This document shows, in pieces, positions 3,452 to 64,000 of a stretch of 64,000 nt of DNA. Source of the DNA: Lama guanicoe. Lineage: Eukaryota. The notes under the pieces were generated by a model. That model ran no database searches, was not told where the DNA came from, and saw nothing but the letters and a program-made list of their open reading frames with translations. Location of the stretch: contig MU053513.1 in NCBI GenBank assembly GCA_013239625.1, forward strand, positions 3,398,927 to 3,462,926, given 5' to 3'. Both the position numbers and the translations under genes were made by a program. Numbering within the stretch: position 1 is the first letter of the stretch; each line of letters begins with the position of its first letter.

Positions 3452-3694
<243 letters not shown>

Positions 3695-10149: not shown

Positions 10150-10960
10150 CCACAATGAGAGGAGGGGGTGGGCGTGCTGCGGCGAGCAGGTAGAGGGTGC
10201 TAAAGCGCCCCGAAGCAGGCTCCTTCCTCACCTCGTTTCCCACCCCTCTGGGACGCACCTATTTTCTCCAGTTTCCCCTCGCCAAACACCACAACCTCCA
10301 TTCCCCACCCTCGCCGAGCCCAGCTCTCCCTCTCACCCCGCAGCTTCGCCTAAACACCGCTGCCATGTCGACTCCGGGTCCGGCTACTCAGCCTCTAACC
10401 CACCCGGCTGTGTCAGTCAAGACGGCGGATCCAGCAGATGCAGGATCCGTCTGGCCCCGCCCATATTTTGCCCCAACCACCCGCGTGGGCGTGGGCGGGG
10501 CTTAGGAGGGGCGGGGCCTCCGAAGGCTGGGACTAGAGGATGGACGAGAATGGAAGACGGAACAGGGCTTCGTTGGCAGCTTAGGCGAATGCTCGCTGGG
10601 CCTGTAACCTCGCCTGCGCCGTCCGCGCCATCTTGGGAAGGGGTCTGACGCGCTCTCGGGGCCTGACTGGTCCTCAGGGGAGGCCCCTGAAAAGGCTTTG
10701 CTTCCCGCTGGTCCTTTGAGTTCAGAAGATGAGCGTCCTGCGGGGAAACTGAGGCTGACAGCAGTGCGGAGATGGAGCCCGGAGGGCGACAGGGCCGCGG
10801 GAGCGGGGGCTGGGCGGGCTGCCGGCGGCGACCGGGCGGGGCCGCGGTCGGTCGGGAATCTGGGTGAGAGGGCTTGGAGAGGCGCCTGGCGAACGACGTC
10901 TCCCTGGCTTTCGACCTTGACTTTAACCCAGAGGAATCTATCCAACCCAAATCGTTTCTG
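10150..10960 (-). promoter_or_regulatory. ACADM: CpG-island promoter of ACADM with GC boxes, YY1-like motif and nuclear-receptor half-sites
   Basis: CpG-rich; GGGCGG boxes at ~10455-10515; CGCCATCTTG at 10626-10635; TCAAGGTCG on minus strand at 10912-10920. Confidence 0.9.
10337..10366 (-). CDS. ACADM: ACADM coding exon 1 (MAAVFRRSCG), start of mitochondrial targeting peptide
   Basis: ATG at 10366 in GACATGG context, 30 nt, then GTGAGA donor; joins in frame to downstream exons giving a recognisable MCAD N-terminus. Confidence 0.96.
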
Positions 10961-12166
10961 CTCTACGGAGTCGAAGTTCACTTTACTATCAAACTCTGCC
11001 CCCAAAGCGAAAAGATGTTCTGTGATTTCTTAGTTAAGTTAAACAAACGGGAATCTAATTACATAAGTAAATTTGACTTTCCAAATATTCCCAAGGCTAT
11101 TTATTACTGTACAGGTGTGGGGATGTGGAGAGTAGTTTTGGAAATAGGGGTGCAAGATGACCCTATCTAAAGCTTCTGGCTCAGCGAATGAATGTTGAAA
11201 GTGGGTGTCTGCCTAAGGAATTCTGTTAGTTACCTTCTCCCGATTAGACCCAGAGTTCTGAGATAGTAACTGTAATGTTACAAAGTCCAGGGATTTGTAA
11301 AGCTGTCAAGATTTGGATAGCTCTACATGAAAGATAATGAAAAGCAAGTTTAAAATGAAACCAATGAAAACCAAGCAAGCCAGGAATATGAACATTTCTA
11401 GTAATTCCCAAGACTTCATAACTCACACCCTGAATCTTACAACTTTTTTGTCTAGTAAAGGGTAGCCATTATCTCATTCTAATTCAGCTGTTTACTTTCT
11501 ATACAGTGTTACTGTACTCCCCTACAAGAACCTTATACTTTATCTTCTGGGAAATTATAATCTATTTATTCAGACTGGGTCCAAGGCAGAAGGTTAAGAG
11601 CTAAATGAAAAAGACCTGGGAAATTCGGAAAAGGGGGAACTCAGTTTGTCTTGGAATCAGAAGAAGTCAGAGAAAGCCTTTACTCTTCTAAAATGAAAAT
11701 CTGATAGTTATCTCTAATTTTAACACCTGCCATGGCTTGTTAACATTTATCGGATAAAGTTAAAATTTCATTGTCTAATGGGAAAGAACCATTTCTTCCT
11801 AACCCCAAGTAATTTCTTTACTTCATTTCCCTCATACTTCTCTTTTATGCTATACTTTTTCACATCACCATACCTCTGGATAAACTGATACCTTACCTCT
11901 TAGATCCCCATCTCGTTTTTATTTGTCCTATGAGAGGCAGCTCAAATGTCACCTTTGGTGAGATTCTCAAAGCTATTTGTCAAATCAAGTAATTTCTCCT
12001 GTATGCTCTCTGTACAAAACCTCTTTTATAATATAATGTTAATAAAGGGTTAGGTCCTATATGGCCTAACCTCCTCACAGTTATATGTACATAATATAAG
12101 AATAAAAATATTAAATAAGGATTGTAATCTTTTACTTACATCTCTTCAAGAAAACTACAGCGATTC

Positions 12167-12799
12167 TGACGTAGGAAAACAGATGTGGAGCATGAGAAGG
12201 GCTGTGTCCCAGATCTCGGTTGAGCCCCTAGGACGTGCCCGAGCAAGTGTGGGTCCTTGGCTTCGTGCAGGAAATAATTCAAGTGCGAGCCACCGTTGAG
12301 TTAAGGTAGATTTATTTACAGAGATACATACTGCATAGAGTGTAAGGCAAGAGAAAGGCAAGGAAAGAGGTGTGGGAATTGGGTGCTCAGGTTAAGGTAA
12401 AAGTAGGTATACACTCCATAGACAGAGTGTGGGCCATCTCCAAAGCAGAGAGAGCTCAAAGGACCACTAGGCGTGGTGTTGTCACTTTTTATGGTCTCAA
12501 TAGCTTCACAGGCCTACAGGTGAGATTAATCCAACTGCCCTGGGAAAAGGTCTGGGATTCCCAGGAACTGGACCACCACCGATGCATTCTTTGGCCTTTT
12601 GCGGTTAGCTTTGGGGCTGTCATGATGCCTGCAGGCATGTTATTTGATCACTCTGTTACAATGAGCAAATAATGAAGCTCAAGTTCTGTTAGAAGTTAAA
12701 CTGCTTAATCCTCAAGGCCAACTAGGAGGTAAGTCTTTAACAATTTGTTTGCTGTCATTTGTTGAGTGGCTGTGCCCTGCCCCCTTCCCTCCTGTCTCA
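12167..12799 (-). mobile_element. Solo ERV LTR, copy A
   Basis: TG...CA termini; 4-bp TSD ATTC/GTTC; AATAAA on minus strand; homologous to copies at 13362 and 17515. Confidence 0.88.
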
Positions 12800-13049
12800 G
12801 TTCTATTTATAATCCATGGCTATGATCTGTTAAATCCTTTTCTGTTTTTTCTGTTGATTTATTATCTTCCATTCTGAAACCACAATCAAATCTCACTCTA
12901 TCCCTTCCTTTACTCTCCATTCCTTATAAAGACCCACAACTGCAGCTCTTGCTTTTCTCATTTTTTCATTATCTTTCCTGTCCTCTTTTCTATACTGCCT
13001 TCCTCTTTCCATCCCCTTTCTTCCCCTACCCTTCTCTTTCTCTCTCTCT

Positions 13050-14905
13050 TTTTTTTTTATGGCTTCAATGGGATATATTCACATACCCTAAAATTCACAC
13101 TTTAAAAACACACGATAGTTTTTAGTATACTCATGGAACTATGGGACCATCACAACTATCTAATATTAGAGCATTTCATCATCCCCCAAATAGTCCCATA
13201 CCCGTTAGCAGTCATTCCACATTCCCGCCTTCTCCCATTAATCTACTTTCTGTTCCTATAGATTCTCCTAGTCTGGACAATTCGTATAAATGGAATGATA
13301 GAATATCATTGTGACTGATTTCTTTCACTTATCATATTTTCACAGTTTATCCATGTTGCATTGATGCAAGAAAACAGGTGTGAAGGACTGTGTCCCAGGT
13401 CTCGACTAAGCCCCTGGAACGTGCCCTGCCAAGTCTGGGTCCTTGGCTTCGCCCAGGAAAGAATTCAAGTGCGAGCCACAGTTGAGTGAAAGTAAATTTA
13501 TTTAGAGAGATACACCCTGCATAGAGTGTAAGGCAAGAGAAAGGCAAGGAAAGAGGTGTGAGAATTGGGTGCTCAGGTTAAAGTAAAAGTAGGTACACAC
13601 TCCATAGCGTGCGGGCCATCTCCAAAGGGGAGAGAGTGAAAAAAGGCCACTAGGCATGGTGTTGCCTTTTTGTGGGCTTAGTAGCTTCACGTGCCTACAG
13701 GTGGGATCATTCCAACTGCCCTGGGGAAGGGGCTGGGATTCCCAGGGATTAGGCCACCACCCATTCTTTGGCCTTTTGCGATTAGCCTTGAGATTGTCAT
13801 GGACCTGAGGGCATGTTATTTATCACGCTGTTACAATGAGCATATAATGAAGCTCAAGATCTACTAGAAGTTAGACCTCTTAATCCTTAAGGCCAACTGG
13901 GAGTTGAATCTTCCACCATTTTGGTGAATCTTCCATTTTGGTGTTAAATTGCTGTCGTTCCTTGAGTGGCTGTGCCTTGCCCTCTTCCCTCCTGTCTCAG
14001 CATGTGTCAGGACTTCATTCCTCTTTATGGCTGAATAATATTCCATTGTGTGATTATATATCACATTTCATTTATGCATTCATCAACTGATGAACATTTG
14101 GGTTTTTTCCACTTACTGGCTATTAGGATAAAATGCTGCTATGAAAATTTATGTACATATTTTCATGTGAATGTCTGTGTTCCTTTCTCTTGGGTACATA
14201 CCTAGGAGGGAAGATGCTAGGTCATATGATAATCCTATGTTTAACATCTGAAGAGTTGTCAATTGATTTCCAAAGAAGCCACATCAACTTTACATTCCCA
14301 CCAGCAGTATATGAAGATTCCAATTTCTTTACATCCTTCTCAACACTTGTCTGTCCTTTTGATTACAGCCATTCTAGGAGATGATAAATGCTATTTCTTT
14401 GTGGTTTTGATTTGTATTTTCCTGATGACTAAAGATGTCTAGCTCCTGTTCATGTGCTTATTGATCATTTGTATATCTTCTTTGAAGAAATGGCCACTCA
14501 GATCCTTTGCTCATTTTAAAATTTGGTTACCTTTTTATTACTGAGTTGTAAGTGTTATTTACATATTATAGATATAAGTCCCTTATTAGGTATGTTATTT
14601 GCAAATATATTCTCCCATTTTGTGGGCTATCTTTTTCTCTTTTTTGATGGTATCTTTTGAAAAAGATTTTAGTTTATAAGTGGAGTCCAATTTATCAACT
14701 TTTCTTTTGTTGCTTGTGCTTCTATTATAACTAAGAAGGCTTTGCCTAACCCAAGATCATAAAAATTTAATGTTTTCTAAGAGTTTTATAGTTTTACTTC
14801 TTACGTTTAGGTCTATGATCCCTTTTGAGTAAATTTTGTGTGCAGTGTGAAATAAAGAGTGCAACTTCATAATTTTGCATGTGGATATTCAGTTGTGACA
14901 GTGTC
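13050..14905 (-). mobile_element. Old L1M-type 3' fragment (ORF2 end plus 3'UTR), interrupted by LTR copy B
   Basis: T-tail at ~13050; HTMEYYSAIKRNE translation; cccaccagcagtatatg L1 motif. Confidence 0.85.
13362..13999 (-). mobile_element. Solo ERV LTR, copy B, inserted in an old L1 3' end
   Basis: TG...CA termini; perfect TSD GCAT (13358-13361 and 14000-14003). Confidence 0.92.
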
Positions 14906-15870: not shown

Positions 15871-17736
15871 TGTTAGCCAATAGAGAGACCCCTAAATTAG
15901 AAGGCCCACCAAAGTGTGGGTCCTTGCCACTCTTGCCAGAAAACTGGCCTCTATACCCCAACAGCCGAATTGAGGGTCGGAGGCAGCAGCAAAGGGAGTC
16001 ACAGCAGGTCAGTGCCTTAGAGACTGTGAGCCCATAATGGGGTTGGGCTCTTGAGGATTTATAGAAAAAGTGGTAACAATTAGGGCATTTTACAAGGTGC
16101 TACATTCCTCTTAAATTCAATGAATCTTCAGGAGGAAGTCAGGAGGGTCTGTTCATTCTTCTGAGATCATCAGCCTGTGATCTCCTTCCTGGAGCATAGC
16201 CTCTGGGTTAAAGTTATTCTCAGTAAAGAATGAATCAGCAGTTTTTTAATCAGTCCGCAGAGAGTTTGTTTGCTTTAAACTCCTTAACTACTGGCTGTGA
16301 AAAATTTTGCAGCAAAGGCAGAGGGACAAAGTGAATGGCTGCTTTATTTCTCAAAATAAGAAAAGGAAAGAAAGCTCTCAAGCTAGGAAAAAGCGTTCGA
16401 GTGGGGAGCCATCGGCCAAGACGGCCAGTGGAGACAGCTCCCTCTATCACTAAGGCCACGTGAACTTTTATGTGAGGCTTCCTTCATCATGTCCTTGTTC
16501 TGGGTGCGCTGGTGCCAATTGCCTTGTCTTCTGTCCTAGTACTCGTTTTTCCTGTTGTCACAGCGATCATCAACTGTCATGGTGCTGGGGGGTGTGTCAG
16601 TTAGCATGCTAATGAGCATATAATGAGGCTCAAGGTCCACTGGAAGTCAAATCCTCTGCCATCTTGGACTCCACAGTTCTAACCAGTTCTTGTTTCTTCT
16701 CTTTGCAGCTGCCTCCTGAGACTTAGATAAGAATACTTGGTTTCTATTTGAGGAAGAGGTAGGGGTATGATCCCGGGGTGGGGGGTGGGGGGAACAGCCT
16801 TGGTAACAAAAAGGAAAGTTACTTTTAATCAGAATGCTGGCAATCTGGTGGGCCCAATGTCCTGCAGTTAAAAACCATCTAAGGCCTGAGAGGCTTCAGC
16901 TTTTCTATAAATAAGAGGCAGGGGTTGGGGTTGGAGGCAGTGGGGGTGGGGGGACCTTAGTTCCTGCAGAAGAACTTAAAAGATATTGCTATGTGTATTC
17001 CTTGAGAAGGTACCAGGACCCTGTCCCAAGGCTGCACTATTATTTCTCAGCTGCTCCTCCTTTGTTTCTGCATTCCCTCCATCTGCTGATTAGCAACTGT
17101 TTGAATCTGCCCTTTGGAATGCAGGGAAGGTGAAGGAGGCTAAATGAAGCCTATTTCCTACAAACAAGAAACGAGGGACAGGGAAAGATTCATACCAGGG
17201 AGGACCCCATGAAAGAGTCACAAGATGGCTTCCCTAACGCTAAGGCAGCTTTAAGAATTTATTGTGATCCATTAGCTTGCTTTCTTTGAGTTACTTCTAA
17301 CTGACTAACCTGTTTTTCCTCCTTGTTACTGCTATTGTTTAACTTGTCTGAGTGACAATGGGCTTAGCAATCCCAACCCTATGATTTATGCCCTACCCTA
17401 AATAACTTGTACCTAAACCCAGGATTTATTTTCCAGAAAGAAAAGAAGGTCACAGAACAATAAACCTGAAGGAACAGCCAGATCTTCCAGGAGCCCCAGG
17501 AGTCCCTTCAGGACAGATGCAGGAAAACAGATGTGGGGCATGAGGAAGGCTGTGTCCCAGGTCTCGGTTGAGCCCCTAGGATGTGCCCTGCCAAGTGTGG
17601 GTCCTTGGCTTCATGCAGGAAAGAATTCAAGAGCAAGCCACAGTTGAGTGAAGGTAGATTTAGTCAGAGATACATTGAAAGGCAAGAGAAAGGCCATGAG
17701 ATGGTTGGGTGCTCAGATTAAAAGTAGGTACACACT

Positions 17737-20572
17737 GCACTTTCCGGCGAGAGGCAAGATGGCAGAGTAGAAGGATATTTGTAGCTCACTCTCTCCCACA
17801 AGTACACCAAAACTCACTCAGCCAACCAGAGCAGCTGCCGAACTCCGACAGAGCATTGGCCTCTTCGAAAGACAAAGACACCAAAAATCTGGTAGGAGAG
17901 GGGGAAAAAAGAAAGAAGAAAAGGCAAAACAGTGTGGGACCAGTCCCGCAGGGAGGGAGTGGCAAAGGAGGACTGGCGCTCATTTGCTGGGTCTCCCCTC
18001 TCCTACGGAGAGGTCAGTGGGATGGAGGGGGAGCCTCCGAGTCTCAGATCTGCCCTGAGCACCCCTTGACCAAAAGAACTAAGTTAAACGGGCACAAAGT
18101 GTCCCCGCGACACCCAGCCCGAGACGCGAGCTGGCAGCTGGGGGCCGCGACAGGCTGCCCAAGCTGGGCAGAGGACTCAGGTGGCTACACTGAGGCAGCC
18201 CTGGGGACTGCAAGGTGCTGCGCATCGTGGCTGGGAGGGGATACGGAGCAGAACAACCTCAGTCCCCCATAAATTGTGAAGAAAACAAAATAACCTGGCT
18301 GGTGTGCCCTGGGGGAAGGGGCACCATAGCCTTTGTTTCCTCAGACCTGTGGCGCCATTACTGGTGCTTCTCATGAGAAGAGAGGCGGGGTGCAGCCACA
18401 GCCACTGTCTCCTCCTGTGTGAGCACCCAGGCGGGGGCAGGGCTAAGCCCTGAATCTGCACCGGGGGCTCTGCAACTTTCTAGACAGGACTGAGACTTGT
18501 TTACAGCCTGCGACAGATAGGATCTTTCTGCCCTGGTACCTCAGAGAACTCACACTGCCAAAACAAACAAGGAGCTGAGTTTTGGCATGGAGCAGGGGCG
18601 GGGCTGTTCCCCAGTCTTCCCCGAGCCCGCCTTTGGAGCACTGACCCCAGGCAAAGTGGGCAGCTACACAGTGCAGCAGAGCGACTGGCACTGGGAGAGG
18701 GCAGGCGGCCACCCACCTTCCTGGCAGGAACGCAGCACCTGACCATGGTGCTGGGAGGGGGCGCGATCCTCCCACCAGCCTCACCCAAGCGCAGCATCTG
18801 ACTGTGGCATCAGGAGGGGGAGTGACCCACCCACCCACCAGCCACAGTGGCAGAGAGATATGAGCAATATGAAGAAGCAGAGGAACCACTCCCAATTAAA
18901 AGAGCAAGAGAAATCCCCTGAAAGCACGATCAAGGAAATAGACATTGATGGCCTACTAGATCAAGATTTCAAAAAAGGACTGATCAAAGTACTGAAGGAA
19001 CTAAAAGAAATAGTGTTTAGAGATATAAAATATGTCAAAAATGAAATAGAAGCTATAAAGAAGAACCAAGTAGAATCAGTAAACTCATTTGCTGAGATGA
19101 GAGCTGACCTAAAGGCTATATAAAGCAGGCTAGATAATGCAGAGGAACGAATAAGTGACCTGGAATACAGGACAAGAGAAAACATCCAATTAGAACACCT
19201 GAGAGAAAAACAAATGAAAAACAATGAAAACAATATAAGGGACCTGTGGGATAACATAAAGTGTGCCAATCTACACATAAGAGGGGTTCCAGGAGAGGAA
19301 GAAAGAACAAAGGGGATTGAAAAGGTATTTGAAGAAATCATGACTGAAAACTTCCCAAACCTAAAGAAGGAATCAGATATCCAAGTACAGGAGGCTCAGA
19401 GGATCCCAAACAGGAAAAACCCAAACAGACCCACACCAAGACATATAATCAAGATGGCCAGAGGCAAGGATAAAGAAATGATCCTAAAGGTAGCAAGAGA
19501 AAAACAAAGAGTGAGTTACAAGGGAACCCCCATAAGGCTCTCAGCTGATTTCTCTGCACAAACACTACAGGCCAGAAAGGAGTGGCAAGATATATTCAAA
19601 GTCCTGAATGAAAGAAAGATGCAGCCTAGGATACTCTATCCAGCAAGGCTATCCTTTAGAATAGAAGGAGAGATAAAGAACTTCACAGACAAGCAAAACT
19701 AAAAGAGTTTAGCAACACTAAACCCATGCTAAAAGAAATATTGGCAGGTCTACTCTAAATAGAAAAGAAGCAGGATGCTACAAAAATAAGAAACTCGTAA
19801 CTGGAAAGGTAATAACTACCATGAATTACAAAAAGAATAAACACAAAAGTGTAAAAGAAGACATCTAAATCATTAAGAGTGGGAGAGGAAAGCAAAGAAA
19901 GCCACTGTGGAAAACAGTATGGGGAGTCATCAAAAGACTAGGAATGGACTTACCATATGACCGAGGAATCTTGCTCCTGGGCATATATCCAGAGGGAACC
20001 CTACTTCAAGGTGATACCTGCACCCCAGTGTTCATGGCAGCACTATTTACAGTAGGTAAGATATGGAAACAGCCTGGGGGTCCATCAGGAGATGACTGGA
20101 TGAAGACGATGTGGTATGTTTATACAATGGAATAATATTCAGCCACGAAAACTGACAGCATAACGCCATTTGCAGCAACATGGATGTTCCTGGAGAATGT
20201 CATTCTAGGTGGAGTGGGCCAGAGGGAGAAAGAAAAATACCATATGAGATCACTCATACGTGGAATCTAAAACAAAAACAAAAACAAAACATAAATACAG
20301 AATGGGGGCAGACTCATAGAAAGCAAACTAGTGGTTGTGAGGGGGTCGGGAGTGGGAAGAGACAGAATGGGATTTTAAAATGTAGAATAGATAAACAAGA
20401 TTGTACTGTATAGCAAAGGGAAATATATACAAGTTCTTGTAGCTCACAGCAAAAAAAAAAATGTAACAATGAATATATGTATGTTCATGTATGGCTGAGG
20501 GATTGTGCTCTATGCTGGAATTTGACACATTGTAGGATCACTATTACTCAATAGACAAATGTTAAAAAAAAA
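17737..20572 (+). mobile_element. Non-autonomous L1 derivative: 5'UTR, ORF1, ORF2 tail/3'UTR, poly(A); ORF2 almost entirely absent
   Basis: 17-bp TSD AAAAGTAGGTACACACT (17720-17736 and 20573-20589) at a TT/AAAA site; AAGATGGC near the 5' end; junction at ~19900. Confidence 0.93.
18860..19758 (+). pseudogene. L1 ORF1p, disrupted (in-frame TAA at 19121-19123; 1-nt frameshift near 19697)
   Basis: Coiled-coil N-terminus, then LWDNIK, ENFPNL, RPTPRHII, PIRLSADFS and YPARLSF motifs; the two listed ORFs share one frame. Confidence 0.92.
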
Positions 20573-22110
20573 AAAAGTAGGTACACACTCCATAGACAGA
20601 ATGTGAGCCGTCTCTGAAGACGGAGACAGAGGGCCGCCACGAGGCGCTGTGTTGCTGGTTTTTATGGGCTTGGTGGCTTCATATGCTAATAAGTGGAAGA
20701 ACCAGTCTAAGTAGCCTGGGGAAGAGGCTGAGGGGTTCCCAAGAAGTAGGCCACTTCCCAGTCTTTGACCTTTTGTGGCTAGCCTTGGGACGCCATTGCC
20801 ATGGGCGTATAATGAAGCTCAGGATCTACTAGAAGTTAAATCTCTCATCATCCTGAGCCTCAAGGCCTACTGGGAGTTGAGTCTTTCACCACTTTGATGT
20901 TAATTGCTGTAGTATTCCTTGAATGGCTGTGCCCTGCCCCCTTCCATCCTGTCTCAACACTAGGAGAATAAAGATAGGTCATGGGTGATGACCTTTTTAA
21001 AGAACTACCAAAGTTCCTATTAAGCTAGATAGACCTTTTGTAAAGGACTCTGGAGGACTGGGGGGGGGGCTATCTGTAAAAAAAAAAATGAAAGATAGTA
21101 CACTCCCAAGATTGGGGTGGGCCGATCCAACAGAGGAAAAATGGGGCCGATTCTTTGTTTTTCCTGTTTTTAGATCCTGGTTCGTGACTGAGTGATGATT
21201 GATTGATTGATTGATTGATAGCTCAGGTTCCCTGTGCTATGGTTGATTGACAGTTCAGGTTCCTTGTGTTCTGGATTGTTGCTTTCCCCTTCCTCTCCCC
21301 CTGCCCAGTGCTCATTTCTATCTAAACTACGTAACACAACAATGATGTCATACATCCCCTCTTAGGGAGGACAAAATTTTCCTCTACCCTTCTAGATTCT
21401 TCTGGTTGGTCTAAGAGTTAAACTGACATGAGACAGACTGACAGGAGAAAATCAAACAAAGCTTTATAACATGTATGTATTGGATAGACCCGGAAACCTG
21501 AGCCACTCCCCAGCATGGCTGACATCCGCGCTTTAAATACCGTACTCAGCTCAAGACAAAAGAAGATGCTGACTGTGGGCAGAGTTAGTTATGAGAGGGT
21601 TGTTCACTTATGGTTGAGGGACTGTCCTCCACGCTGGGATTTGACATGACATTGTAGGATGACTATTACTCAATAGACAAATGTTAAAAAAAAAAAAAAG
21701 TAGGTACACACTCCATAGACAGAATGTGAGCCGTCTCTGAAGAGGGAGAGAGAGGGCCACCACGAGGCGCTGTGTTGCTGTGCAGGAAAAGCACAGTAAA
21801 CACGGATTCTTATCTAGATTTAAAGTTCATTAGTGGAAAAATAATAAAAACAAGAACTACATTAGCAAAATAAAGCAAGCCATTTATTATATGATTACAA
21901 TGCCTCAGGCACAGTGTTAATCATTTTACCTACTCCATTTTAGTCACTCCTTACAACAGATCTAGGAAACGAGGTACTATTGGAATTCTAGTTCAGATCA
22001 CAGGGCTTAGAGGCTAAGTAGTGGGTTTAAGACCATGTTTCTAATGAATGATAGTATCAGGCATTAAACTCAGGTCTGTCCAATGCTCTTACATGTCTGC
22101 TTATGTTACT

Positions 22111-25385: not shown

Positions 25386-26871
25386 TGTTGCTGGAGACTA
25401 GGTTCTTCTCTCTCACAGGAAAGCGTTTAAGAGCAAGCCATAGTAAAATGGAAGCAGATTTATTCAGGGAGATATATACTCCATAGACAGAGTGAGGACT
25501 GTCTCAGAAGGCAAGAGAGGTGGCCCCCGCGTAGGGGGTTGTTTGTTTTTGTGGGCTGGGTAATTTCATATGCTAACAAACAGGAAGATTATTCCAACAA
25601 TTTTCGGGAAAGGTTGGGGATTTCCAGGAATCGGGCCCTCCCACCCACTTTTTGGACTTTTATGGTCACCCACCCACTTTTTGGACTTTTATGGTCAGTC
25701 TAGGAACTGTCATGGTGCCTGCAGGTGTGTCATTTAGCAACAAATGTATGACATTAAGCATATCATGAGGCTCAAGAATCTTCTGCCATCTTGGGCCCAG
25801 TTGGTTTTAACCAGTTTATGCCCCATCCTCAACTGCTGTGTCATTCTTTTCAGGGAGCTACTTGGAGAGCTTTATGCATGTCTCTAGGAGCATGAAGGTC
25901 TTACCAGTGACTATTCTAAGGGCGAGGTGCTGTGGCTGGAACTGCCCCATCTGGTGGCAGAATGCAAAGGTGGCTACTTTGAGACTGGCTGTCTGTCCTT
26001 CCTCCCGCGGTGGGTTAAAGGTGCATGTTTTTGAGACTTGATAAGGACCCTGTGGAAATGATCCTAACCAGGTGTGCCGCCTAAGGAAAAGGAACAGAGA
26101 ATTGATCCCAGAAATCCAGGAGCCAGACAGAAAAAGGCAGACCAGGCAATCCGAGGGGATTTGTGAAGAACTCACAAAGATACCCCATAGAGCCAGCAAT
26201 TGACTGCTGCCACCTAGAAGGCCCTGCAGGTGGATTACAACTGTACCTGCCACAAAAACTGTGCTCCATTTCCCCAGCACACACCCTTCTGAAGGAGAAT
26301 TAATAAAATGGCCGCACTTAGGCTACCAGATTTCTTATTCTTATGCTTGCCCTTAAAATGGTCAACTGATCTGACTGACTGGTTGCTACTTACAGCTCCA
26401 GGCCCATTGTTTAAATAAAGCTATTACTTTTACTATTTCTTTTTTATTCCAGTAATCAAAAATAATAATCATGCTTGGTTTCTGAGTCATTCTCCAGGGA
26501 GAAGGTCATAGAACTGTAACCTTACAAAACAGGCTAAATACCAAGAAGACCACACTTTGGGTGCTTATAAGATAAAGAGATAGAAAGACCACTAGCCTTT
26601 GTAGAATTGGTCGCCTGGAGGCATCACGACGCCACTCTAAGTCTTCTGATGAGAAAATGATTCTGTTGATTGTTTATTGTTTGAACCATGGCTATATCAT
26701 CACCCTGCCCCATGCCCAAGGTGGGTTCACAGTTTTGAAGACACTAGCCTGCTGTGAATCCCCTTTGCCCAGCTAAGTAATAAAGCTGTCTCTTTTCTTC
26801 TATGTTCCAAGACACTGTCTCTGAGTTTCAATTTGGCTCATCAGGGATGAAGAGCTGATCTTTCGGCAACA
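25386..26871. mobile_element. Composite ERV LTR region: minus-strand LTR from 25386 and plus-strand LTR 26290-26871
   Basis: TGTTG start with homology to LTR A-C; second unit TGAAGG...AATAAA(~26779)...CAACA. Confidence 0.7.
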
Positions 26872-36800: not shown

Positions 36801-38769
36801 ATATTCTACCTGGAAATCTGGATTCCTGACTCCTCTTATAAAATCAGAATCCTCACATTCTCAGGTTTCCATTCCCCTAAGGCAACATGCAGCTTTATAG
36901 TGGTGCAGGTGCTCCCAGCGCCCTGAAGTCCCTACCCCTCATTCAAGTACAGCCTACATACTTATACTGCTTGTGTCCTGTATTTTTGCTCTACTGATCG
37001 CTACAGGCATTCTATTTGCAACCCTTAAGCAAAAGTACACACTGTGGGTTACTCGGAAAGTGCCTGGTTTGGAAACCCAGGGCCTGGGTAGATGTGACTG
37101 TAATGTCTCTGGTTCTGTTTCCTCATCTGTTCCATTGGGCTCAATAAATCTCTTTCAATGGTCTTTTGTGATAGTTGTGGCCTTCAACTGAGACAACTCA
37201 TGTAAAAACACTTTGAAGTGCTACAAGGGTAAACACACGTTAATCATATCCTTGTACAACAAATAGACATAGTTCATCAACTAAAAGTTTGAGCTCCCTC
37301 TGTAGACAGGAAACTATCCTTGATCTGAAGCAGAAATGGTCTGTTTTGTAGACAGCTGGTGTCATGGAAAAAGCCTCACAAGTTAGGCTCTTAGAAGAGC
37401 CTCACAAGTAATTGCACCTACGTGAACCTCATGTCCTCATCTATAAAATGTGGAAGACAGAGCCTGCCCTCCGAACTCACAGGTTTGTGGTCAGGATCAA
37501 GTGAAATAAAGTATGCAAACTTGATGAATAAACTGTAAGACATTATCTTAATATAGGCAATAATTAGTACTTGGTGATAAAATATGAACACATACAATAA
37601 ACTAAGAATATTTACAAGCCTAATATTTACATACCTCAAGAGCATGAAGCGTAGTTTTGAATTAAGCCAGAGACAGCTTTTTGGAAGAGGAAATTTTCAT
37701 TGTGTCTCATTTCTAGCTGTACACCTGAGAATGGACCTATTTTGCTAATTGAAATAAGCTTGCTATTTGTGCTTTATTTCTAATGCACACCTTTGTTGTG
37801 AGAGGAGTTGGGTATTTCACATTTTCTTCAGATTTCTTACTCCAATGTCATACAGTATATAAAGTTAAATTCAGAAGAGTGCAAAAAATAACGTGATGGT
37901 TTTGTGACTAAGAAATCTCGGAATTAGTTGTCAGAGATGGAAGAAATCTTTGAGGTGATATTTTACAAACCAGAAAGCAGAAGAGCAGAGAGGTTAAGTG
38001 ACTTGTGCAAGTTCTCGATGCTATGAAGTTGGAAGGCTAGAGCTTAAAACCAGGGGTTTGGACTCCAGTGTTCTTACTGGAGTAAGAACTCCAGTTCTCC
38101 AGAAGTAAGTGTTTCTTACATTGATACTGGGGCAGCTTCTGGCTCCTGGTACTGAATTGAATCACGGGATGTTTAGATAATCAGGCTGGGATGAGAACGT
38201 AGGCAGAGGAAAGGAGACGTGTTAATAAAATCGCTGTGAATTAGAAAGTGGGTTTTGGGGTAAACTCCAGCTCCTGTAAAGAAAAAAATGATTTGGCATC
38301 CTTCCCCCGTGCATACTGGTAACCCCTTCCCCACCTACCCCTTCCGTCATTCTTTTAAAGCCTGGTTACTACTTTTACATTCTTAGACGTTGTCTTAAAC
38401 TTCCGCAGGACCCTGGTGTCCCGGGACACTGGTGAGATCCTTTCTCTGATCAGCACGCTAGAGGAGGACAGCTCCTCCAGGAAAATGAAAACTTTCCAAA
38501 CCCACAATCAGAGCGAGAAAAGAACGCGACCACTGGAACGAAGTGTCTACTGGAGGCCAAGAAGTCACTCCTCCCCCTGCTAATTCCTCCAACCTGTGAA
38601 AGCGTGAACTTTCTTAAACCTTTCCCCACAGCCCCAAGGGACCTGTCCTGAGTGTTCGCTGTTAAGAGCTTTAGGGCCTGAACTAGGTCATTCTTCCATG
38701 TGTCTGTCGCTGGACTGCCTCTGGAACTCAATTTCTCTCCTCTCCACTAACCTCGTTTCCTTCTTCCCT

Positions 38770-39800
38770 TCTCGGTTCCGGAGGGCAGAGGCATCCGCGC
38801 GTCCCGGGGCTCATCGCCCGCCTGGAATTCCGGCTCGGTGCCCGGGACCAGGCTTTTTGTCGAGGACCGCGGTGGGGCCCGGTCTCGAGCGCGGGTGCCT
38901 GTGCTCTTGCAGTCGGCCAGAGTCCTTGCTGGCTTACGGAGATGGGTGCCATTCGAGGGCCCACCCGACCGTTTGCATCACGCCTTGCCGCCTGGGAGGG
39001 GTCTTCGGAGGCCCGGAGGGAGACAGAAGGTGGGCCCCACCAGAGTCGGGCTGCTTGGCTTTCTCCTTTCCGGCCGCAGATGGCCTTGGGTCCCGGCTTT
39101 CCCGGCAGCCCCCCGCTGCGGCCACCGCCGCCTTCCCCAGGAGCGGCTGCTGGCTGAGGGCGCCGTGGTTGGACTGGAGCTGGCGGCTCAGACGGGACAC
39201 TCGGGGTGGGGAAGTGGGGGAGGGAGGGTGTGGGAAAGGGGGAGGCCAGGGCCTGGCGGGCACTCGGAGAGCAGTATAACAGCATCCACAGCTGCCGCCG
39301 TAGCCACAGCAGCCACAGCAGCGCGAGCGCGAGGCTCGCAGCGCTGCGCGGCGGAGCGCAGACGGGCGGCGGCGCCCGCCCCAGCCGAGCCGAGCCGAGC
39401 CGAGCGCGCAGCCAGGCAGTCGTCGCCGCCGCCTCGCAGATGCCATCACAGCAACAAAGAGCTTGCTGAGCCGAAAGCCGAGGCGAGAGCTCGTCTGGAA
39501 GCCACGGCGGGGGCTCCCGGGACTGGGCGGCAGCAGGAGGAAGCGCTCGGGGGGCGGGGGGGAGGGGAGGGGGCAGAAGATGGCCAAGAAGAGAAAGCCG
39601 CCCAGCATCAAGGGTGAGTTCCGCTCCATTTCCACCTCTCTCCATCCCACCTCCTACCCGCGCTCTGCCCCTCTGGCTGTCCTGTTTACATTCAGGCTCT
39701 GCCAAGTGGAAGGCTGCGTGCTGGGGAAGAGTTTGCCTTTTCCGGTAGGTGGGGAGACCTCAGCACCGCCGCACCTCTCTTTGCCTCGGCGGTGGAGGGG
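38770..39800 (+). promoter_or_regulatory. SLC44A5: CpG-island promoter and 5'UTR of SLC44A5; a second CpG patch lies at 40365-40640
   Basis: Dense CpG, (CCGAG)4, GC boxes, G-runs upstream of the ATG. Confidence 0.85.
39580..39613 (+). CDS. SLC44A5: SLC44A5 (choline transporter-like protein 5) first coding exon, MAKKRKPPSIK plus phase-1 G
   Basis: AAGATGG Kozak, GTGAGT donor; resembles recalled mouse Slc44a5 N-terminus MARKRKPPSSQG; known head-to-head synteny with ACADM. Confidence 0.85.
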
Positions 39801-42719
39801 GGTGGGGTGGGGAGACTACGACAGGAGTTTGTCCCCTTTTTGTGACCTGGAGAAACCTGGAGACTCTTTCTCTACCTCATCCCTTTCCTACTCCACATGC
39901 TGGGTGTCTGTTGCACCTTTCTCCCTCAGGGCAGTGGGGAGAGAAGCGACTCTCGGCTCCTAGGGTCTTAACCTTTTAAAAATCAGTCTCTCTCTCTGTC
40001 TCTCTCTCTGTGTGTATGAGTGTGAGAGAGTTAGTTTTTCACGGTCTCTGTTATTCTCTCCTCCCTCCGTCCCTTCATTCCAGGGTAACAAGTTCTGCAT
40101 CCATTTTCCCAGCCTCCATCCTTAGGAGGAGATACGAGCTGCATGTACAGCTCTCCTTTTCCCCAATGGTCAAGGGGACTTGCTACTGGCCGGCTCCCTG
40201 CAGGCTATTTCTCCCTTCCCGACTTGCCTAGGCTGGCGGTGACTGGCTGAGCAGGACCCCTGTTGCTCCTTTGGAACGAGGGCTTCTAAAGTTGGAAAGT
40301 TCAGGGGAGAGAAGCGCTGGCAGGAAGGACACGGAAGAGCTTGTTGCTGGGGTGACTTCAGGCATCGCGGCGTGGTCGGGAGCTGGACTCGGAAGAGAGC
40401 CTCCTGGGCGGAGTCGGGCAGGGGGGTGTCCCCAGGACTCGCACTACGCGGCGCGTGGGGAGCAGGTGTACCGGCCGCGGGCCTCCGCAGCGCGGACTCG
40501 CAGAGGTCGCCGCTCGCCGGCATCCTAGCGCTCCCGCGCTCTAGCTGGGGAACCAGCAGCGGCCGAGAGGTTGTCTGCAGCACTGCAGAGAGGTGGAAGC
40601 CAGCTCGACACCATGCGCGGTGAGCAGGGCTGTGCGCGGGGGCATTGGACTTGAGCTTGGTTGGGGAGGAGGAAGGAGCGGCGTTGGAAGTTGGATTTCG
40701 ATCCAAAGGATCTGATGGCCTGGGAGGCGGAGACTTACTGCGCCTTGGGATTACATACAATAGGACCATACTCTGAGATGGGAAGGGGTGTACTATTTAT
40801 TGCATGTATAGGCTAGGTTTACAACAGCGTGCCTGGCTTTGGCGTGCTTCTGGCTTTTTTCCCTAAGTCTTGCTTGTGAGAGCTTAGCTCCACTCTAGAG
40901 GTCACTAGGGGGACACAACTTTATCTTGGTGCTTCAGCTTGCTTTTTAATTGCCCCGGAGTACTCAAATCACTAATTGGAAAGGGTTTCAAACCGTGATC
41001 CTTAATCTTTTGGAAGGCGTTACTACAAAACACTCGGGATTTCCTGTTTGAAATCATCGTATGTGTATAATAATGTTATTGCAATGTATTTCCTTAAAAA
41101 TAATACAGCTCCTTAAACCTGATTTTTCTTCTCTCCTAGTGAATTAGTACGTATTTATAGTGGTAGGCGACTGAAGAAAGAATGAGTGAATATATTCATC
41201 TACGAAGTTTCCTTATTATACTATCAAAGAATTAGTCCAAACCCAGACTGACAGGGTGCATTAGCTGCACTTTTGGTTCACTCCTTTTTTATGGAACCAT
41301 ATGGCACGATGAATGAAACAGAAGGATTGGTTTTCAGCACTGCTGATGTGGCTATCCATTGGCAGGAATACATTTCATACCCACCCCAAACCTTGCAGAT
41401 TGTAAATGGTCCATGAAGAGTGGAAAAAATTTTACAGTTTTACAGTACATGCTGGCTGGAGACAATCTTACCCTGAAATTAATCTTGGTAGAAGCACAGA
41501 GATACAAAGGAGACCAAATAAATGAGAAGTGAACTAGTGTAAGAGGTTTGATTAAACAGTTACCTCCTTATTACTCCCCCTCAAAAACACCAAGAAGTTT
41601 TTGATTTGTATGCCAAGACAGAATTGTGTGTATTTTCTTAAATTTAACTTGATAGTGAAAAAATTGAAGAATAGCAATTAACAGAATTTTGTCATTTAAC
41701 AGTTCTTCTGGAAGAGTTAACAGTCAAGCTTTCCTAAGATATGTGGTCTCAAGAAATTTCATTGCAGTTCCTTAAAAATAAGGTTTTCTCATACTACATA
41801 TTTTTCTCAAAAGTTATGTTATTTAGCTCTTACTGACTTGTGTTTTTTTCCCCCTCTCTCTACTAATGTTGTTTCTTTCTTTCTTTCTTTTTTTTAAACC
41901 AGGTTACTTAATATTTCTTAGAAGGAATGATACCTTAAAAATAATCTTTGGAGTTTGCCTTTAGCAAAGCACAGTTAGCTGTGATGTCTTATAGATAACA
42001 AAAGCAATTCCAGGAAGTTGCAATCCATTGACTTGTCTCAATTTTGCCTTTTAAGAGGAGAGCTCTACAAAAACATCTGACTGCAGGCTTGCTGAACTGC
42101 TCTTGGTCATATGCTTCTAAGCTACAACCAACTAAACAGGGACTGCCTGGTAGAAAACCAAATTGCTAAATTACTAGGGGGTTTTTTGTTTGGTTGTTTC
42201 CTTTGTTTTTTGGCAGTCTGAGGTGAACTTTGCTGGATAATAAACTACAGGTTTAGCAATATTGCAGCCTGTGTTGTTCTCTTATGAGAGCTGTTTCTCT
42301 GCTTAGTTACACTGCATGCAGGGAGAGCTCATTGGTTGGAGCATGTGACAGGCAAGTTGCTCATTGGCTTCTAGCAATAGGTACTACACATCCAGAACAG
42401 CTAGAAATTGGCCAAAGGGAAGTGCAGTTTCTTAATGTTGACAGCAGAATAAGATGAGTTGGCAGCATTTCTCAAGGGATACTAACATTCACTTGCGATA
42501 CCTCATCAAAAGGACAGCTTTTCAAAAAGGCAGATAGAATATTTATCAATCTAATGTTTACACTGTTTTAATGAAAAAAATGCTGTAGTCCGTGATCAAC
42601 AAAAGTCTTATAAGCACAAGTTAGTTATATTAGTTATAGTGATATTAATACTCCCTCTTCCAGTATTAGTACAACAAGGATTTCTCACTTAATTACTTCA
42701 GTTTAAAGGTTAAGTTATG

Positions 42720-54203: not shown

Positions 54204-56349
54204 CTTGAAAATTTTTTTATTTTAAAATTTATTTATATTTATTCATTTACATTGAAGTACAGTCAGTTACAATGTGTCAACTTCTGGTGTACAGCATAAT
54301 GTCCCAGTCATGCACGCGCACACACACACACGCACACACACACACATATATACACATATATATTTGTTTTCATATTCTTTTTCATTCAAGGTTATTACAA
54401 GATAGTGAATATAGTTCCCTGTGCTATACAGAAGGAATTTGGGGTTTTTTTAATCTATTTTTATATATAGTGGTTAACATTTGTAAATCTCAAACTCCCA
54501 AATTTATCCCTTCCCACCCTCTTTGCCCCAGTAACCATAAGATTGTTTACTATGTCTGCAAGTCTGTTTCTTTTATAGATGAGTTCATTAATGTCCTCTT
54601 TATTTCTTTTCTTTTCTTTTCTTTTCTTTCCTTTCCTTTCCTTTTCTTTCCTTTTCTTTTTTATATTCCACATATGAGTGGTATCACATGGTATTTTTCT
54701 TTCTCTCTGGCTTACTTCACTTAGAACGATTATCTCCAGGTCCATCCATATTGCTGCAAATGGCATTATTCTTTTTTATGGCTGAGTAGTATTCCATTGT
54801 ATAAATATACCACCACTTCTTTATCCAGTCATCTGTCAATGGACATTTAGGTTGTTTCCATGTCTTGGCTATTGTAAATAGTGCTTCTATGAACATTGGG
54901 GTGCATGTATCTTTTTGAATTAAGGTTCCCTCTGGATATATGCCCAGGAGTGGGATTGCTGGGTCATATGGTAAATCTAGTTTTTTTGAGAAATCTCCAT
55001 ACTGTTTTCCATAATGGCTGCACCAAACTACATTCCCACCAACAGTGTAGGAGGGTTCCCTTTTCTCCACATCCTCTCTGGCATTTATCGTTTGTGGACT
55101 TTTAAATGATGGCCATTCTGACTGGCATGAGGTGATACCTCACTGGATTTTTTATTTGGTTTCCTCTGACAATTAGTGATGCTGAGTAGTTTTTCACGTG
55201 CATATTGTCCATTTGTATTGGAGAATTGCTTAGTTAGGTCTTCTGCCCATTTTTGGGCTCTGAACTTGGGGTCTTTATTTGATTTTTTGTTATTAAGTTG
55301 TATGAGTTATTTATATATTCTGGAAATTAAGCCTTTGTCAATTGCATCATTTGCTAATATTTTCTCCCATTCCATAGGTTGTCATTTTGTTTTATGTATG
55401 GTTTCCTTTACTGTGCAAAAGCTTATGTTTAATTAGGTCTCATTTGTTTATTTTTGCTTTTATTTATTTATTTATTTATTTATTTTTTGCTTCAACATTG
55501 CTAAGATTTATGATACCACCCTCTACCCCCCCCCCGACCCCGGTAACCACAAGTCTGTATTCTCTGTCCATGAGTCTATTTTTGTCCGGTATTTATGCTT
55601 TGTTTTTGTTTGTTTTTGTTTTTTAGATTCCACATATGAGCAATCTCATATGGTATTTTTGCTTTTATTTTTATTGCCTGCATAGACTGCCCTAGAAGAA
55701 CACTGCTAAGATTTACGTCAGGGAATGTTTTGCCTATGTTTTCTTCTAGTTTTATAGTGTCTTGTCTTATATTTAAGTCTTTAAGCCATTTTGAGTTTAT
55801 TTTTGTGTATGGTGTGAGGAAGTGTTCTAACTTTATTGGTTTACATGCTGCTGTCCAGTTTTCCCAACACCACTTGCTAAAAAGACTGTCTTTTCTTGTA
55901 TATTCTTGCCTCCTTTGTTGAAGATTAGTTGACTGTAGGTCTGTGGGTTTATTTCTCAGCTCTCTATTCTGTTCCATTGATCCATATGACTGTTTTGGGG
56001 CCAATACCATGCTGTTTTGATTACTGTAGCTCTTTAGTGTTGTCTGAAGTCTTGGAGGGTTATTCCTCCAGCTTCTTTCTTTTTCTTCAGTATTACTTTG
56101 GCAATTCTGGGTCTCCTGTGATGCCATATAAATTTTAGGGTTATTTGTTCTAGTTCTGTGAAAAATGTCCTGTGTGATTTGATAGAGATCACATTAAATC
56201 TGTAGACTGCCTTGGACAGTATGGCCATTTTAACAATATTGATTCTTCCAATCCAAGAGCATGGGATGTCTTTCCTTTTCTTTAAGTCATCTTTAAGTTC
56301 CTTAATCAATGTAGTTTTGTAGTTCTCCACGTGTAAGTCTTTCACTAAC
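54204..56349 (-). mobile_element. 5'-truncated chimeric L1 (ORF2 C-terminal part plus 3'UTR) inserted in an L2
   Basis: ORF2 motifs [43 protein letters not shown](T/G)CTTTCT at 54191-54203 and 56350-56362. Confidence 0.92.
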
Positions 56350-56672
56350 GAGCTTGCTTTCTACTAAAGGGAGGAAGTAATGCCTTACCAGTTCATTTCC
56401 ATACAAAGCTGTTAAGCGCAGTGCTATGTCTCAAGTCAATATAAGGTGCAATGGGACTATACTTTGCCACTTCCCCTGCTCCCTCCAGGGTAAGGGTGTG
56501 AGTTAAGACTTTATTGAGAATGTAGTAACCATATGAGACTATATTTCAAGTCATCCAACAAAATCAATCTCACTGACATCTTAACTACTAAATTTTGGTA
56601 CTATATTTTCTGCCTATTGTTTTTTATTTTATATGCACATCATTTTTTAGATATGACTGATGTTTCTCTAAT

Positions 56673-61724: not shown

Positions 61725-64000
61725 TTTTTTTTTTTTTAATTGAGGTATAGTCAGTTTACAATGTTGTGTCAATTTCTGGTGTACAGCATGATGCTTCAGT
61801 CATACATGAATATACATATATTCCTTTTCATATTCTTTTTCACCATAAGCCACTACAAGATATTGAATATATTTCCCTGTGCAATACAATATAAAACTGT
61901 TTATCTATTTTATATATACCAGTTAGCATCTGCAAATCTTGAACTCCCAGTTTATCCCTTCTCATTCCCTCCCCACTGTAACCGTAAGTTTGTATTCTGT
62001 CCGTGAGTCTGTTTCTGTCTTTTATATAAGTTCATTTATCTTTTCTTTCTTTTTTTTTTTTTTTAGATTCCACATGTGAGTGATATCATATGGTATTTTT
62101 CTTTCTCTTTCTGGCTTACTTCACTTAGAATGACATTCTCCAGGGCCATCTATTTTGCTGCAAATGGCAGTTTTTATCATTTTTTATGGCTGAGTATAAA
62201 TATGCCACATTTGCATGGAATATCTTCTTCCATCCTCTCACTCTCAGTCTATGTGTATCTTTCTCCCTGAAATGGGTCTCTTATCTGCAGCATATTGTAG
62301 GTTCTTGTTTCATTATCCAGTCTGCCACTTTATGTCTTTTGATTGGAGCATTTAGTCCATTGACATTTACAGTAATTATTGATAGATGTGTGTTTATTGC
62401 CATTTTAAACTTAATTTTGCAGTTGATTTGGTATATCCTCTTTGTTCTTTTCTTTTTCTTTTTGTGGTTTGATAATTTTTCTTCATATTATCTTGGTTTC
62501 TTTGTAGTTTTTGTGTCTCTACTGTAAACTTTTGGATTGTGGTTACCTGTTTTGTACATGTCTTAACCCATTACTATATCTGTTTGTTTTAAACTGATAG
62601 TAATATAAGCTCAAACCCATCCTACCAAGAACAAAAACAAAAACAGAAACAAAAAAATTATATTTTCTTGTTCCCCTCTCATGTCCTTAATGATTTAGAT
62701 GTCTTCTTTTACAACTTCATGTTTATTCTATTTGTAATTCAGGGTAGTTATCACCTTTCCCATTATGGTTTTCTCCTTTCTGTAAATCCTGCTTCTTTTC
62801 TATTTAGAGTAGACCTTTCAATATTTCTTTTAGCATCAGTTTAGTGTTGCTAAATTCTCTAAGTTTTTGCTTCTCTGTGAAGTTCTTTCTCTCTCTTCTT
62901 CTAAATGATAGCCTTGCTGGATTAAAGTATCCTAGATTGCAGCTTTTTCTCATTCAGGACTTTGAATATATCTTGCCACTCCCTTCTGTCCTGCAGTGTT
63001 TTGTGTACAGAAATCAGCTGAAAGCCTTATGGGGGTTCTCTTGTGACTATTTTTCTCTTGGTTCCTTTAGAATCATTTCTTTATCCTTTACCCTATGTAT
63101 TGGTGTGGGTCTGTTTGAGTTCTTCTTGTTCGGGACCCTCTGTGCTTCCTGTACTTGGATATCTGATTCCTTCTTTAGGTTTGGGAAGTTTTCAGTCATG
63201 ATTTCTTCAAATACCTTTTCAATACCCTTTGCTCTTTCTTCTCCTTCGGGACATTTCTATTATGTGTAGGTTGGCACATTTTATATTATCCCATAGATCC
63301 CTTATATTGTTTTCTCTCAGCTGTTCTGATTGGGTGACTTCTGTTGTCCCGTCTTCTAAGTCACTTATTTGTTCCTCTGCATTATCTAGCCTGCTTTTTA
63401 CAGCCTTTAGCTCAGCTCTTATCTCAGCAAATGAGTTTTCCAGTTTTAATTGGCTCCTCTTTACAGTTTCAATTTCCTTTTTGACATATTCTCTGTCTCT
63501 AAACACAATCTTTTTTAGTTCCTTCAGTACTTTGATCACTCCTTTTTTGAAATCATGATCTAGTAGACTATCAAGGTCTATTTCATTGATTGTTTTTTCA
63601 GGGGATTTCTTTTGTTCTTTTAATTAGGAGTGGTTCCTCTGCTTCTTCATTTTACTTATATCTCTCTGGCACTATGGATTATGGAGTTTCAGTTATCTAC
63701 TGTGATCCTGAAGAGGTTTGTTTGTTTGTTTATCTATCTAAAGCTGATGTGGAAATAAAACTAAAAAAAATTTAAAAGAAGAAAAAATATTTGAAAACTG
63801 TAATCAATAACAAGAATAAAATGAAGAGAAATAAAAATCAAGTTGAGACAATTTTTTAAAAATTTTAAAGAAGAAAAAGATTTGAAAACAGAATATAACC
63901 AATAACAGAAGAACAAAACAAAGAAATAAAAATCAAATTGAGACCAATTTAAAAAAATCAATAAAAATTTTAAAAGGGATAAAAAATTAAAAAATTAAAA
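61725..64000 (-). mobile_element. L1 with 5'UTR part, decayed ORF1 (~63660-62804), inter-ORF spacer, ORF2 start (62403) and internal deletion to the ORF2 end; runs off the window
   Basis: Poly(T) at 61725; MAINTHLSIITVNVNGLNAPIKRH endonuclease start; ORF1 homologous to the 18860 copy. Confidence 0.9.

What the first reader, a model, noticed from the sequence alone, without database searches (positions are those of the whole stretch)
19901..20560. A-to-G hypermutated 3' module in a retrotransposed L1 derivative (ADAR-like fossil)
Seen: aligned by eye to the other L1 3' ends in this window (54690-55010, 62070-62200, 28344), this segment differs mainly by sense-strand A-to-G. Examples: ctaagtgaagtaagccagaaagag to ctaggtggagtgggccagagggag (20205-20228; 6 changes in 24 nt), caacctaaatgt to cagcctgggggt, caaaaaga to caaggtga, ggataaag to ggatgaag, and AATAGA where a poly(A) signal would be expected. 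I count roughly a dozen A-to-G against about one G-to-A over ~180 nt (19966-20145). I did not notice this bias in ORF1. Known: ADAR edits A-to-I in dsRNA and is copied as G, while APOBEC3 and CpG decay give G-to-A or C-to-T. Inference: a hyper-edited RNA was reverse-transcribed, either for this copy or in a founder that then amplified as a family.
Basis: partly seen in the sequence, partly recalled or inferred. Interest (0 to 1): 0.75.

Follow-up and report, generated by a model that had tools for sequence, protein, structure and literature searches.

The report
One-copy A-to-G scar in L1 tail
A dead LINE-1 jumping-gene copy that lacks most of its copying-enzyme gene carries about 27 one-stranded A-to-G changes in its tail that its sister copies mostly lack, likely because the RNA-editing enzyme ADAR edited that one RNA before it was copied into the inherited genome.

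Summary
The A>G bias is real. The element (17737-20576) is an L1 with 5'UTR and ORF1 joined straight to the end of ORF2, with a poly(A) tail and a 17-nt target duplication. In 19901-20400, A>G hits 27 of 183 A sites, against T>C 3 of 90 and G>A 1 of 85. The changes come in runs (p=0.0007). ORF1 shows 1 of 80. The G alleles are not family-wide: sister reads carry A at five tested sites, and 1 read covers 20072-20110 against about 800 at the ORF1 end. Two sites are subfamily variants. In 20401-20562 the excess is not significant. ADAR context is only partly met: 3' G is enriched (p=0.045), 5' G is not depleted (p=0.64), and no duplex partner was found. Neighbouring LTRs show a 2.4-fold A>G over T>C skew. 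Best reading (0.6): one ADAR-edited RNA was retrotransposed once. The founder-family version is disfavoured. The scan noted similar L1 tails before, on other DNA of this genome and in other genomes (unchecked). ADAR-type edits in L1-made insertions are reported in cultured cells (PMC11702581).

The parts
17720..17736 (+). 5' copy of the 17-nt target-site duplication, at a TT/AAAA L1 endonuclease site inside an LTR
   Evidence: exact match to 20573-20589; uninterrupted LTR copies at 12168-12800 and 13354-14000
17737..18859 (+). L1 5'UTR, GC-rich, 34 CpG; the element appears to keep its 5' end
   Evidence: no second copy in the window; the 5'UTR label is inferred from its position before ORF1
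18860..19760 (+). L1 ORF1, broken by one stop (codon 88) and a frameshift near 19700; no A>G excess
   Evidence: Pfam PF02994 E=1.8e-22 and PF17490 E=1.7e-18; translation; spectra
19761..19900 (+). start of the inter-ORF region, ending at the deletion junction; here the copy has A where sisters have G at five sites and G where they have A at one
   Evidence: table 3 (19783, 19788, 19811, 19889, 19896 against 19797; 21 further rows were not shown); junction alignments
19901..20270 (+). last about 123 codons of L1 ORF2; core of the A>G burst (19 of 126 A; T>C 2 of 72; G>A 0 of 60)
20271..20400 (+). first part of the 3'UTR, with a G run at 20304-20308 where the nearest-subfamily fragment has five A (A>G 8 of 57)
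20401..20563 (+). distal 3'UTR; A>G present (8 of 60) but not in significant excess; two CA>TG doublets
20564..20576 (+). poly(A) tail, 13 A, the last four shared with the target duplication
20573..20589 (+). 3' copy of the target-site duplication
21601..21780 (+). local duplicate of 20482-20657 (L1 end, tail and flanking LTR); shares the G alleles and still has CG where the main copy has TG at 20513-20514

Best explanation
This is a single dead, ORF2-deleted L1 insertion whose 3' part carries a sense-strand run of A-to-G changes, likely A-to-I edits that ADAR made on the RNA and that L1 reverse transcriptase then copied as G. Shown: the insertion anatomy (target duplication, TT/AAAA site, poly(A)), the strand-specific A>G excess in 19901-20400, its clustering, its absence from ORF1, and its absence from most sister copies. 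Inferred: the 3' end of the RNA paired with an antisense L1 stretch at or from the source locus; ADAR deaminated roughly one A in seven; ORF2 protein from an intact L1 inserted the cDNA; new CG sites later decayed to TG; a DNA-level event later duplicated the 3' end 1.1 kb away. No present function is proposed.
For: A>G 27 of 183, T>C 3 of 90 (p=0.004), G>A 1 of 85 (p=0.0004) in 19901-20400. 7 adjacent A>G pairs against 1.7 expected (p=0.0007). ORF1 of the same insertion: A>G 1 of 80. Sister reads carry A at 19923 (57 of 65), 19946 (166 of 172), 19994 (254 of 314), 20011 (121 of 131) and 20036 (110 of 125); 1 read covers 20072-20110. 3' G enriched, 10 of 35 against 24 of 172 (p=0.045); 5' A/T 24 of 126 against 5' C/G 8 of 88 (p=0.052). 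All 3 A>G that follow a C now read TG and none reads CG, among 46 CA sites, and the duplicate keeps one CG, so the changes are old. 27 of 183 exceeds every local background rate tried (p=0.006 against the highest). Precedent: 3 of 235 L1-made pseudogene insertions carried ADAR-type clusters in cultured cells (PMC11702581, passage).
Against: 5' G is not depleted: 5 of 42 against 27 of 172 (p=0.64), though PMC4365171 (passages) gives this as the ADAR hallmark. The element has no long inverted repeat (longest arm 34 nt at 71%) and the module folds no better than shuffles (z=0.37). Three LTR copies on the same strand show A>G 19 of 322 against T>C 9 of 358 (p=0.03); a 2-fold regional skew would make 27:3 non-significant (p=0.13). 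The A>G rate in the flanking LTR (10 of 113) is not significantly below the module's (p=0.17). Beyond 20047 the reference is older window copies from other subfamilies, so some Gs may be subfamily alleles, as 20010 and 20028 proved to be. ADAR1 over-expression gave no editing in 2.5 kb of L1 RNA (PMC5224506, passages).
Confidence: 0.6

Rival explanations
1. Error-prone DNA synthesis during this one insertion: G placed opposite template T while the second strand was made, by L1 reverse transcriptase under skewed dNTP pools or by a translesion polymerase such as pol eta. This also gives a private, sense-strand A>G burst.
For: The 5' A/T preference (19% against 9%, p=0.052) fits the WA target of pol eta (recalled) as well as ADAR. 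5' G is not depleted. No duplex partner was found.
Against: Other changes at A are rare (A>C 4 and A>T 3 against A>G 35). 3' G enrichment and A-run to G-run conversion are ADAR-like. ORF1, copied in the same event, is clean.
Confidence: 0.15
2. The Gs were inherited from a small, G-drifted subfamily or an ORF1-only (HAL1-type) lineage, which covers the first reader's edited-founder version.
For: Some Gs are subfamily alleles (20010, 20028, 19966; 20331). Scan notes list other ORF1-only L1s in this genome (unchecked). 39-70 reads lie just 3' of the junction and their origin was not resolved.
Against: Reads near the junction carry A. No match in metagenome scans or among scan windows, both weak tests.
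Confidence: 0.12
3. Ordinary decay of A-rich DNA plus a regional A>G over T>C mutational skew from transcription, with chance clustering.
For: Regional skew of 2.4-fold in three LTR copies. Such skews occur in all mammals (PMC2927911, passages). Flank A>G rate 10 of 113.
Against: ORF1 has the same age, strand and A content but shows 1 of 80 (p=0.0004). A>G to G>A is 35:3 in the module and 10:10 in the flank (p=0.0005). The runs (p=0.0007) are not explained.
Confidence: 0.09
4. GC-biased gene conversion tract.
For: Net gain of G+C in the module. A scan note reports a gBGC-like L1 elsewhere in this genome (unchecked).
Against: gBGC is strand-symmetric, but T>C is 3 of 90 against A>G 27 of 183 (p=0.004), and A>C and T>G are not raised.
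Confidence: 0.03

Closest known systems
ADAR-edited mRNAs copied into DNA by L1 in cultured human cells (PMC11702581, preprint; abstract and two passages seen; supplement not seen)
   Same: Clustered ADAR-type changes inside an L1-made insertion
   Different: There somatic, in inverted Alus of host mRNAs with the duplex visible. Here inherited, in the L1's own 3' end, with no duplex partner inside the insert.
APOBEC3 DNA-edited retroelements fixed in vertebrate genomes (PMC4866542 and PMC2873906; passages seen)
   Same: A deaminase burst frozen in one retroelement copy, strand-biased and clustered
   Different: G>A in LTR elements, made on cDNA. The PMC4866542 filter kept only G-to-A and excluded A-to-G.
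ADAR hyper-edited RNA clusters (PMC4365171; passages seen)
   Same: A>G clusters with 3' G enrichment
   Different: Seen in RNA reads, not in the genome. Strong 5' G depletion there, not shown here.
HAL1 (half-L1) elements (passage in PMC5753468; Bao and Jurka 2010 not held)
   Same: 5'UTR plus ORF1 plus L1 3' end, without endonuclease or reverse transcriptase
   Different: HAL1s are multi-copy families; a shared junction was not shown here.

Membership tests
L1 insertion by target-primed reverse transcription | target duplication, TT/AAAA site and poly(A) tail | tested here: met
   17-nt exact duplication preceded by TT; 13-A tail
ADAR hyper-editing fossil | A>G excess on the RNA strand only | tested here: met
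   27 of 183 against T>C 3 of 90 and G>A 1 of 85; weaker if a 2-fold regional skew is allowed (p=0.13)
ADAR hyper-editing fossil | clustered edits | tested here: met
   7 adjacent pairs against 1.7 expected, p=0.0007
ADAR hyper-editing fossil | G depleted 5' of the edited A | tested here: inconclusive
   5 of 42 against 27 of 172, p=0.64; low power, and two of the five sites have a doubtful reference letter
ADAR hyper-editing fossil | G enriched 3' of the edited A | tested here: met
   10 of 35 against 24 of 172, p=0.045, not corrected for the four context tests run
ADAR hyper-editing fossil | double-stranded RNA partner | tested here: inconclusive
   none inside the element; the source locus is unknown
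ADAR hyper-editing fossil | the same sites are edited in germline L1 RNA | not tested
   no RNA run was laid
HAL1 family | encodes ORF1 only | tested here: met
   ORF1 domains; inter-ORF joined to the ORF2 end at 19900
HAL1 family | many independent insertions share the junction | tested here: inconclusive
   none of the 24 contig pieces listed (8173 more not shown) bridges 19900; reads just 3' of it number 39-70 and may be ordinary ORF2
APOBEC3-edited retroelement | sense-strand G>A clusters | tested here: not met
   G>A 3 of 108
gBGC tract | strand-symmetric AT to GC change | tested here: not met
   A>G far exceeds T>C, p=0.004

The most novel reading that the evidence does not exclude
The ORF2 deletion and the editing are one event: reverse transcription began on an inosine-rich L1 3' RNA and switched at 19900 to a second, unedited L1 RNA, so the insertion is a two-RNA chimera whose seam is marked by the edits. 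In the rows shown, differences from the read majority run 1 A>G to 5 G>A before the junction and 5 to 0 after it (p=0.015), and the first A>G lies 23 nt past the seam. If general, ADAR scars would be a heritable record of RNA editing in the germline and a tracer for how half-L1s are born.
Probability: 0.2. Interest if true: 0.72.

Novelty: new variant of a known kind. Interest (0 to 1): 0.48.

Why it matters
If ADAR made these changes, RNA edits are sometimes written into inherited DNA by L1, and genomes hold a datable record of past germline editing. That would also show that catalytic ADAR does reach L1 RNAs that go on to insert, which one cell-culture study did not detect (PMC5224506). This copy alone is a moderate example (about 15% of A, weak context). 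Its particular value is the clean internal control of an unedited ORF1 in the same insertion, and the edge of the burst at a deletion junction.

Tried and rejected
No whole genome is held, so no genome-wide copy search or subfamily reference was possible. Two metagenome motif scans found 0 matches. Protein searches with the ORF2 remnant returned 26 of 28 and 13 of 30 candidates, none above 66% identity and none named as camelid; the hits are biased towards words shared with the query, and 4 of the 15 aligned show G at one of the lysine positions. Look-ups of scan notes by sequence and by place found nothing. My first reading, a G-drifted family at 55%, was dropped mainly because. An early impression that all bases drift to G was dropped because some C>G and T>G differences are subfamily alleles (19966; 20248). 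An assembly artefact is unlikely: the local duplicate shares the distal Gs, and 20 runs from 8 studies hold 0.44-0.52 of the 4.8-kb stretch's words, though that share does not test the G sites themselves. A host-gene scan of 122 of 260 open frames gave 1 Pfam hit, outside the element. Seven literature searches for inherited A>G-edited L1 or retrocopies listed no paper on it by title or abstract start; the library lacks most subscription journals, Carmi 2011 and Bao and Jurka 2010 were not held, and I recall that the Levanon group has discussed the idea, so absence from print is not established.

Full report
Anatomy. The finding is the 3' part of one insertion, 17737-20576 on the + strand. It has a GC-rich 5' region, ORF1 at 18860-19760 (Pfam PF02994 and PF17490; one stop and one frameshift) and 140 nt of inter-ORF sequence. 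At 19900 it jumps to the last codons of ORF2, then the 3'UTR and a 13-A tail. An exact 17-nt target duplication (17720-17736 and 20573-20589) preceded by TT marks a normal L1 endonuclease insertion into an LTR, of which two uninterrupted copies lie at 12-14 kb.

The bias. Against single window copies, the 3' module shows A>G 23 and G>A 6 (54-kb copy) and 29 and 6 (62-kb copy). The comparators against each other give 16 and 15, and ORF1 against the 63-kb copy gives 32 and 28. At sites where at least two comparators agree, A>G is 35 of 232, T>C 7 of 133 and G>A 3 of 97. I refined this with family reads for 19901-20047, dropping 4 sites where reads split about evenly and 3 where the nearest-subfamily fragment agrees with the copy: A>G 35 of 243, T>C 7 of 139, G>A 3 of 108, over 589 of 662 positions. 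In 19901-20047 I treated positions without a listed row as matching the family, although 21 rows were not shown. The excess lies in 19901-20400 (27 of 183, T>C 3 of 90, G>A 1 of 85); 20401-20562 is not significant. Adjacent A>G pairs number 7 against 1.7 expected (p=0.0007). ORF1, where two copies agree, shows 1 of 80.

One copy, not a family. 1938 Mb of raw reads from one public run and contigs from three more were laid on 19760-20110 at 88% likeness. Raw depth is about 800 at the ORF1 end, 69-331 over 19904-20047, about 30 at 20048-20059, and 1 over 20072-20110. Sister reads carry A at 19923 (57 of 65), 19946 (166 of 172), 19994 (254 of 314), 20011 (121 of 131) and 20036 (110 of 125). They split at 20010 (63 of 131 A) and 20028 (72 of 155 A), which are therefore subfamily variants. 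Caveats: the library is Hi-C, a filter removes some records, and the single read's letters were not shown. The only sibling seen is a local duplicate at 21601-21780 that includes 80 nt of the target-site flank, so it is a copy of this locus and not a second insertion. Whether the ORF1-only junction recurs elsewhere is open: none of the 24 listed contig pieces bridges it, but 8173 were not shown.

Timing and context. Of 46 reference CA sites, the 3 with A>G all read TG and none reads CG, and the duplicate keeps CG at one of them. This is what A>G followed by methyl-CpG decay gives, so the changes are old. The 3' neighbour G is enriched (10 of 35 against 24 of 172, p=0.045) and a 5' A/T is favoured (p=0.052). 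The 5' G depletion that PMC4365171 (passages) and PMC2873906 (passages) give as the ADAR mark is not seen (5 of 42 against 27 of 172). The element holds no long inverted repeat and does not fold beyond chance, so any duplex partner lay outside the copied RNA.

Local controls that cut against a simple reading. The three LTR copies on the same strand show A>G 19 of 322 against T>C 9 of 358, and the LTR that hosts the insertion shows A>G 10 of 113, balanced by G>A 10 of 118. A 2-fold regional skew would remove the significance of the strand test alone (p=0.13). It would not explain the clean ORF1 (p=0.0004), the 35:3 against 10:10 contrast (p=0.0005) or the runs. Such skews are general in mammals (PMC2927911, passages). 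No gene was shown to span the insertion; 1 of 122 scanned frames had a Pfam hit, an acyl-CoA dehydrogenase exon on the minus strand at 3452-3694.

Mechanism. Most likely (0.6) the 3' end of one L1 RNA paired with antisense L1 RNA, ADAR converted about one A in seven to inosine, and ORF2 protein from an intact element copied it into the germline, reading inosine as G. The insertion, spectrum, clustering and privacy are shown; the enzyme, the duplex and the order of deletion and editing are inferred. Rivals are polymerase error during this insertion (0.15), a small G-drifted or edited-founder lineage (0.12), regional skew plus chance (0.09) and gBGC (0.03). The burst starts within 23 nt of the deletion junction, and the shown majority differences flip from 1:5 to 5:0 across it (p=0.015). 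A switch between two RNAs fits this, but so does a duplex that covered only the 3' end.

What is known. L1-made insertions with ADAR-type clusters are reported in cultured cells, 3 of 235 pseudogene insertions (PMC11702581, passage; its supplementary figure was not seen). Inherited deaminase scars are well described for APOBEC3 as G>A (PMC4866542, passages). ADAR1 binds L1 RNA, but no editing was found in 2.5 kb of reporter RNA, with rare editing not excluded (PMC5224506, passages). HAL1 is defined as an ORF1-only L1 derivative (PMC5753468, passage). Seven searches listed no paper on inherited A>G-edited L1 copies, within a library that lacks most subscription journals. The scan's own unchecked notes report similar tails elsewhere in this genome and in others; they gave me three paper leads and raised my prior for ADAR, and they are not independent evidence.

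Verdict. A real, private, strand-specific A>G burst in a dead ORF1-only L1; probably an ADAR fossil; not an amplified edited family. New variant of a known kind, interest 0.48.

Noticed in passing
window 21601-21780: Local duplicate of 20482-20657 set inside another repeat. Its first 58 nt differ from the source at 9 sites plus a 3-nt indel, the remaining 106 nt at only 3 (p=0.005), which suggests error-prone copying at the start or later gene conversion.
   Followed up: partly
window 61725-63690, minus strand: A second L1 that joins ORF1 and the start of ORF2 directly to the 3' end at about 62205, so it also lacks most of ORF2, with a different junction. No A>G excess on its branch (6 of 158).
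   Followed up: partly
window 54240-56360, minus strand: Rearranged L1 ORF2 3' region with a second L1 3'-end fragment (55540-55665) embedded in it; that fragment is the closest subfamily match to the studied copy.
   Followed up: partly
window 12168-12800, 13354-14000, 17516-20957 and about 25416-25714: At least four same-strand copies of one LTR family within 14 kb; the three compared show a pooled A>G over T>C skew of 2.4-fold.
   Followed up: partly
window 3452-3694 (minus), about 10200-11000 and about 38700-40800: Acyl-CoA dehydrogenase N-terminal exon (PF02771) and two CpG-island-like stretches; the studied L1 lies between the two islands.
   Followed up: no
window 19760-19900: The inter-ORF part of the copy has A at five sites where most sister reads have G, the reverse of the 3' module. 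Chance, CpG decay or a different source subfamily were not told apart.
   Followed up: partly
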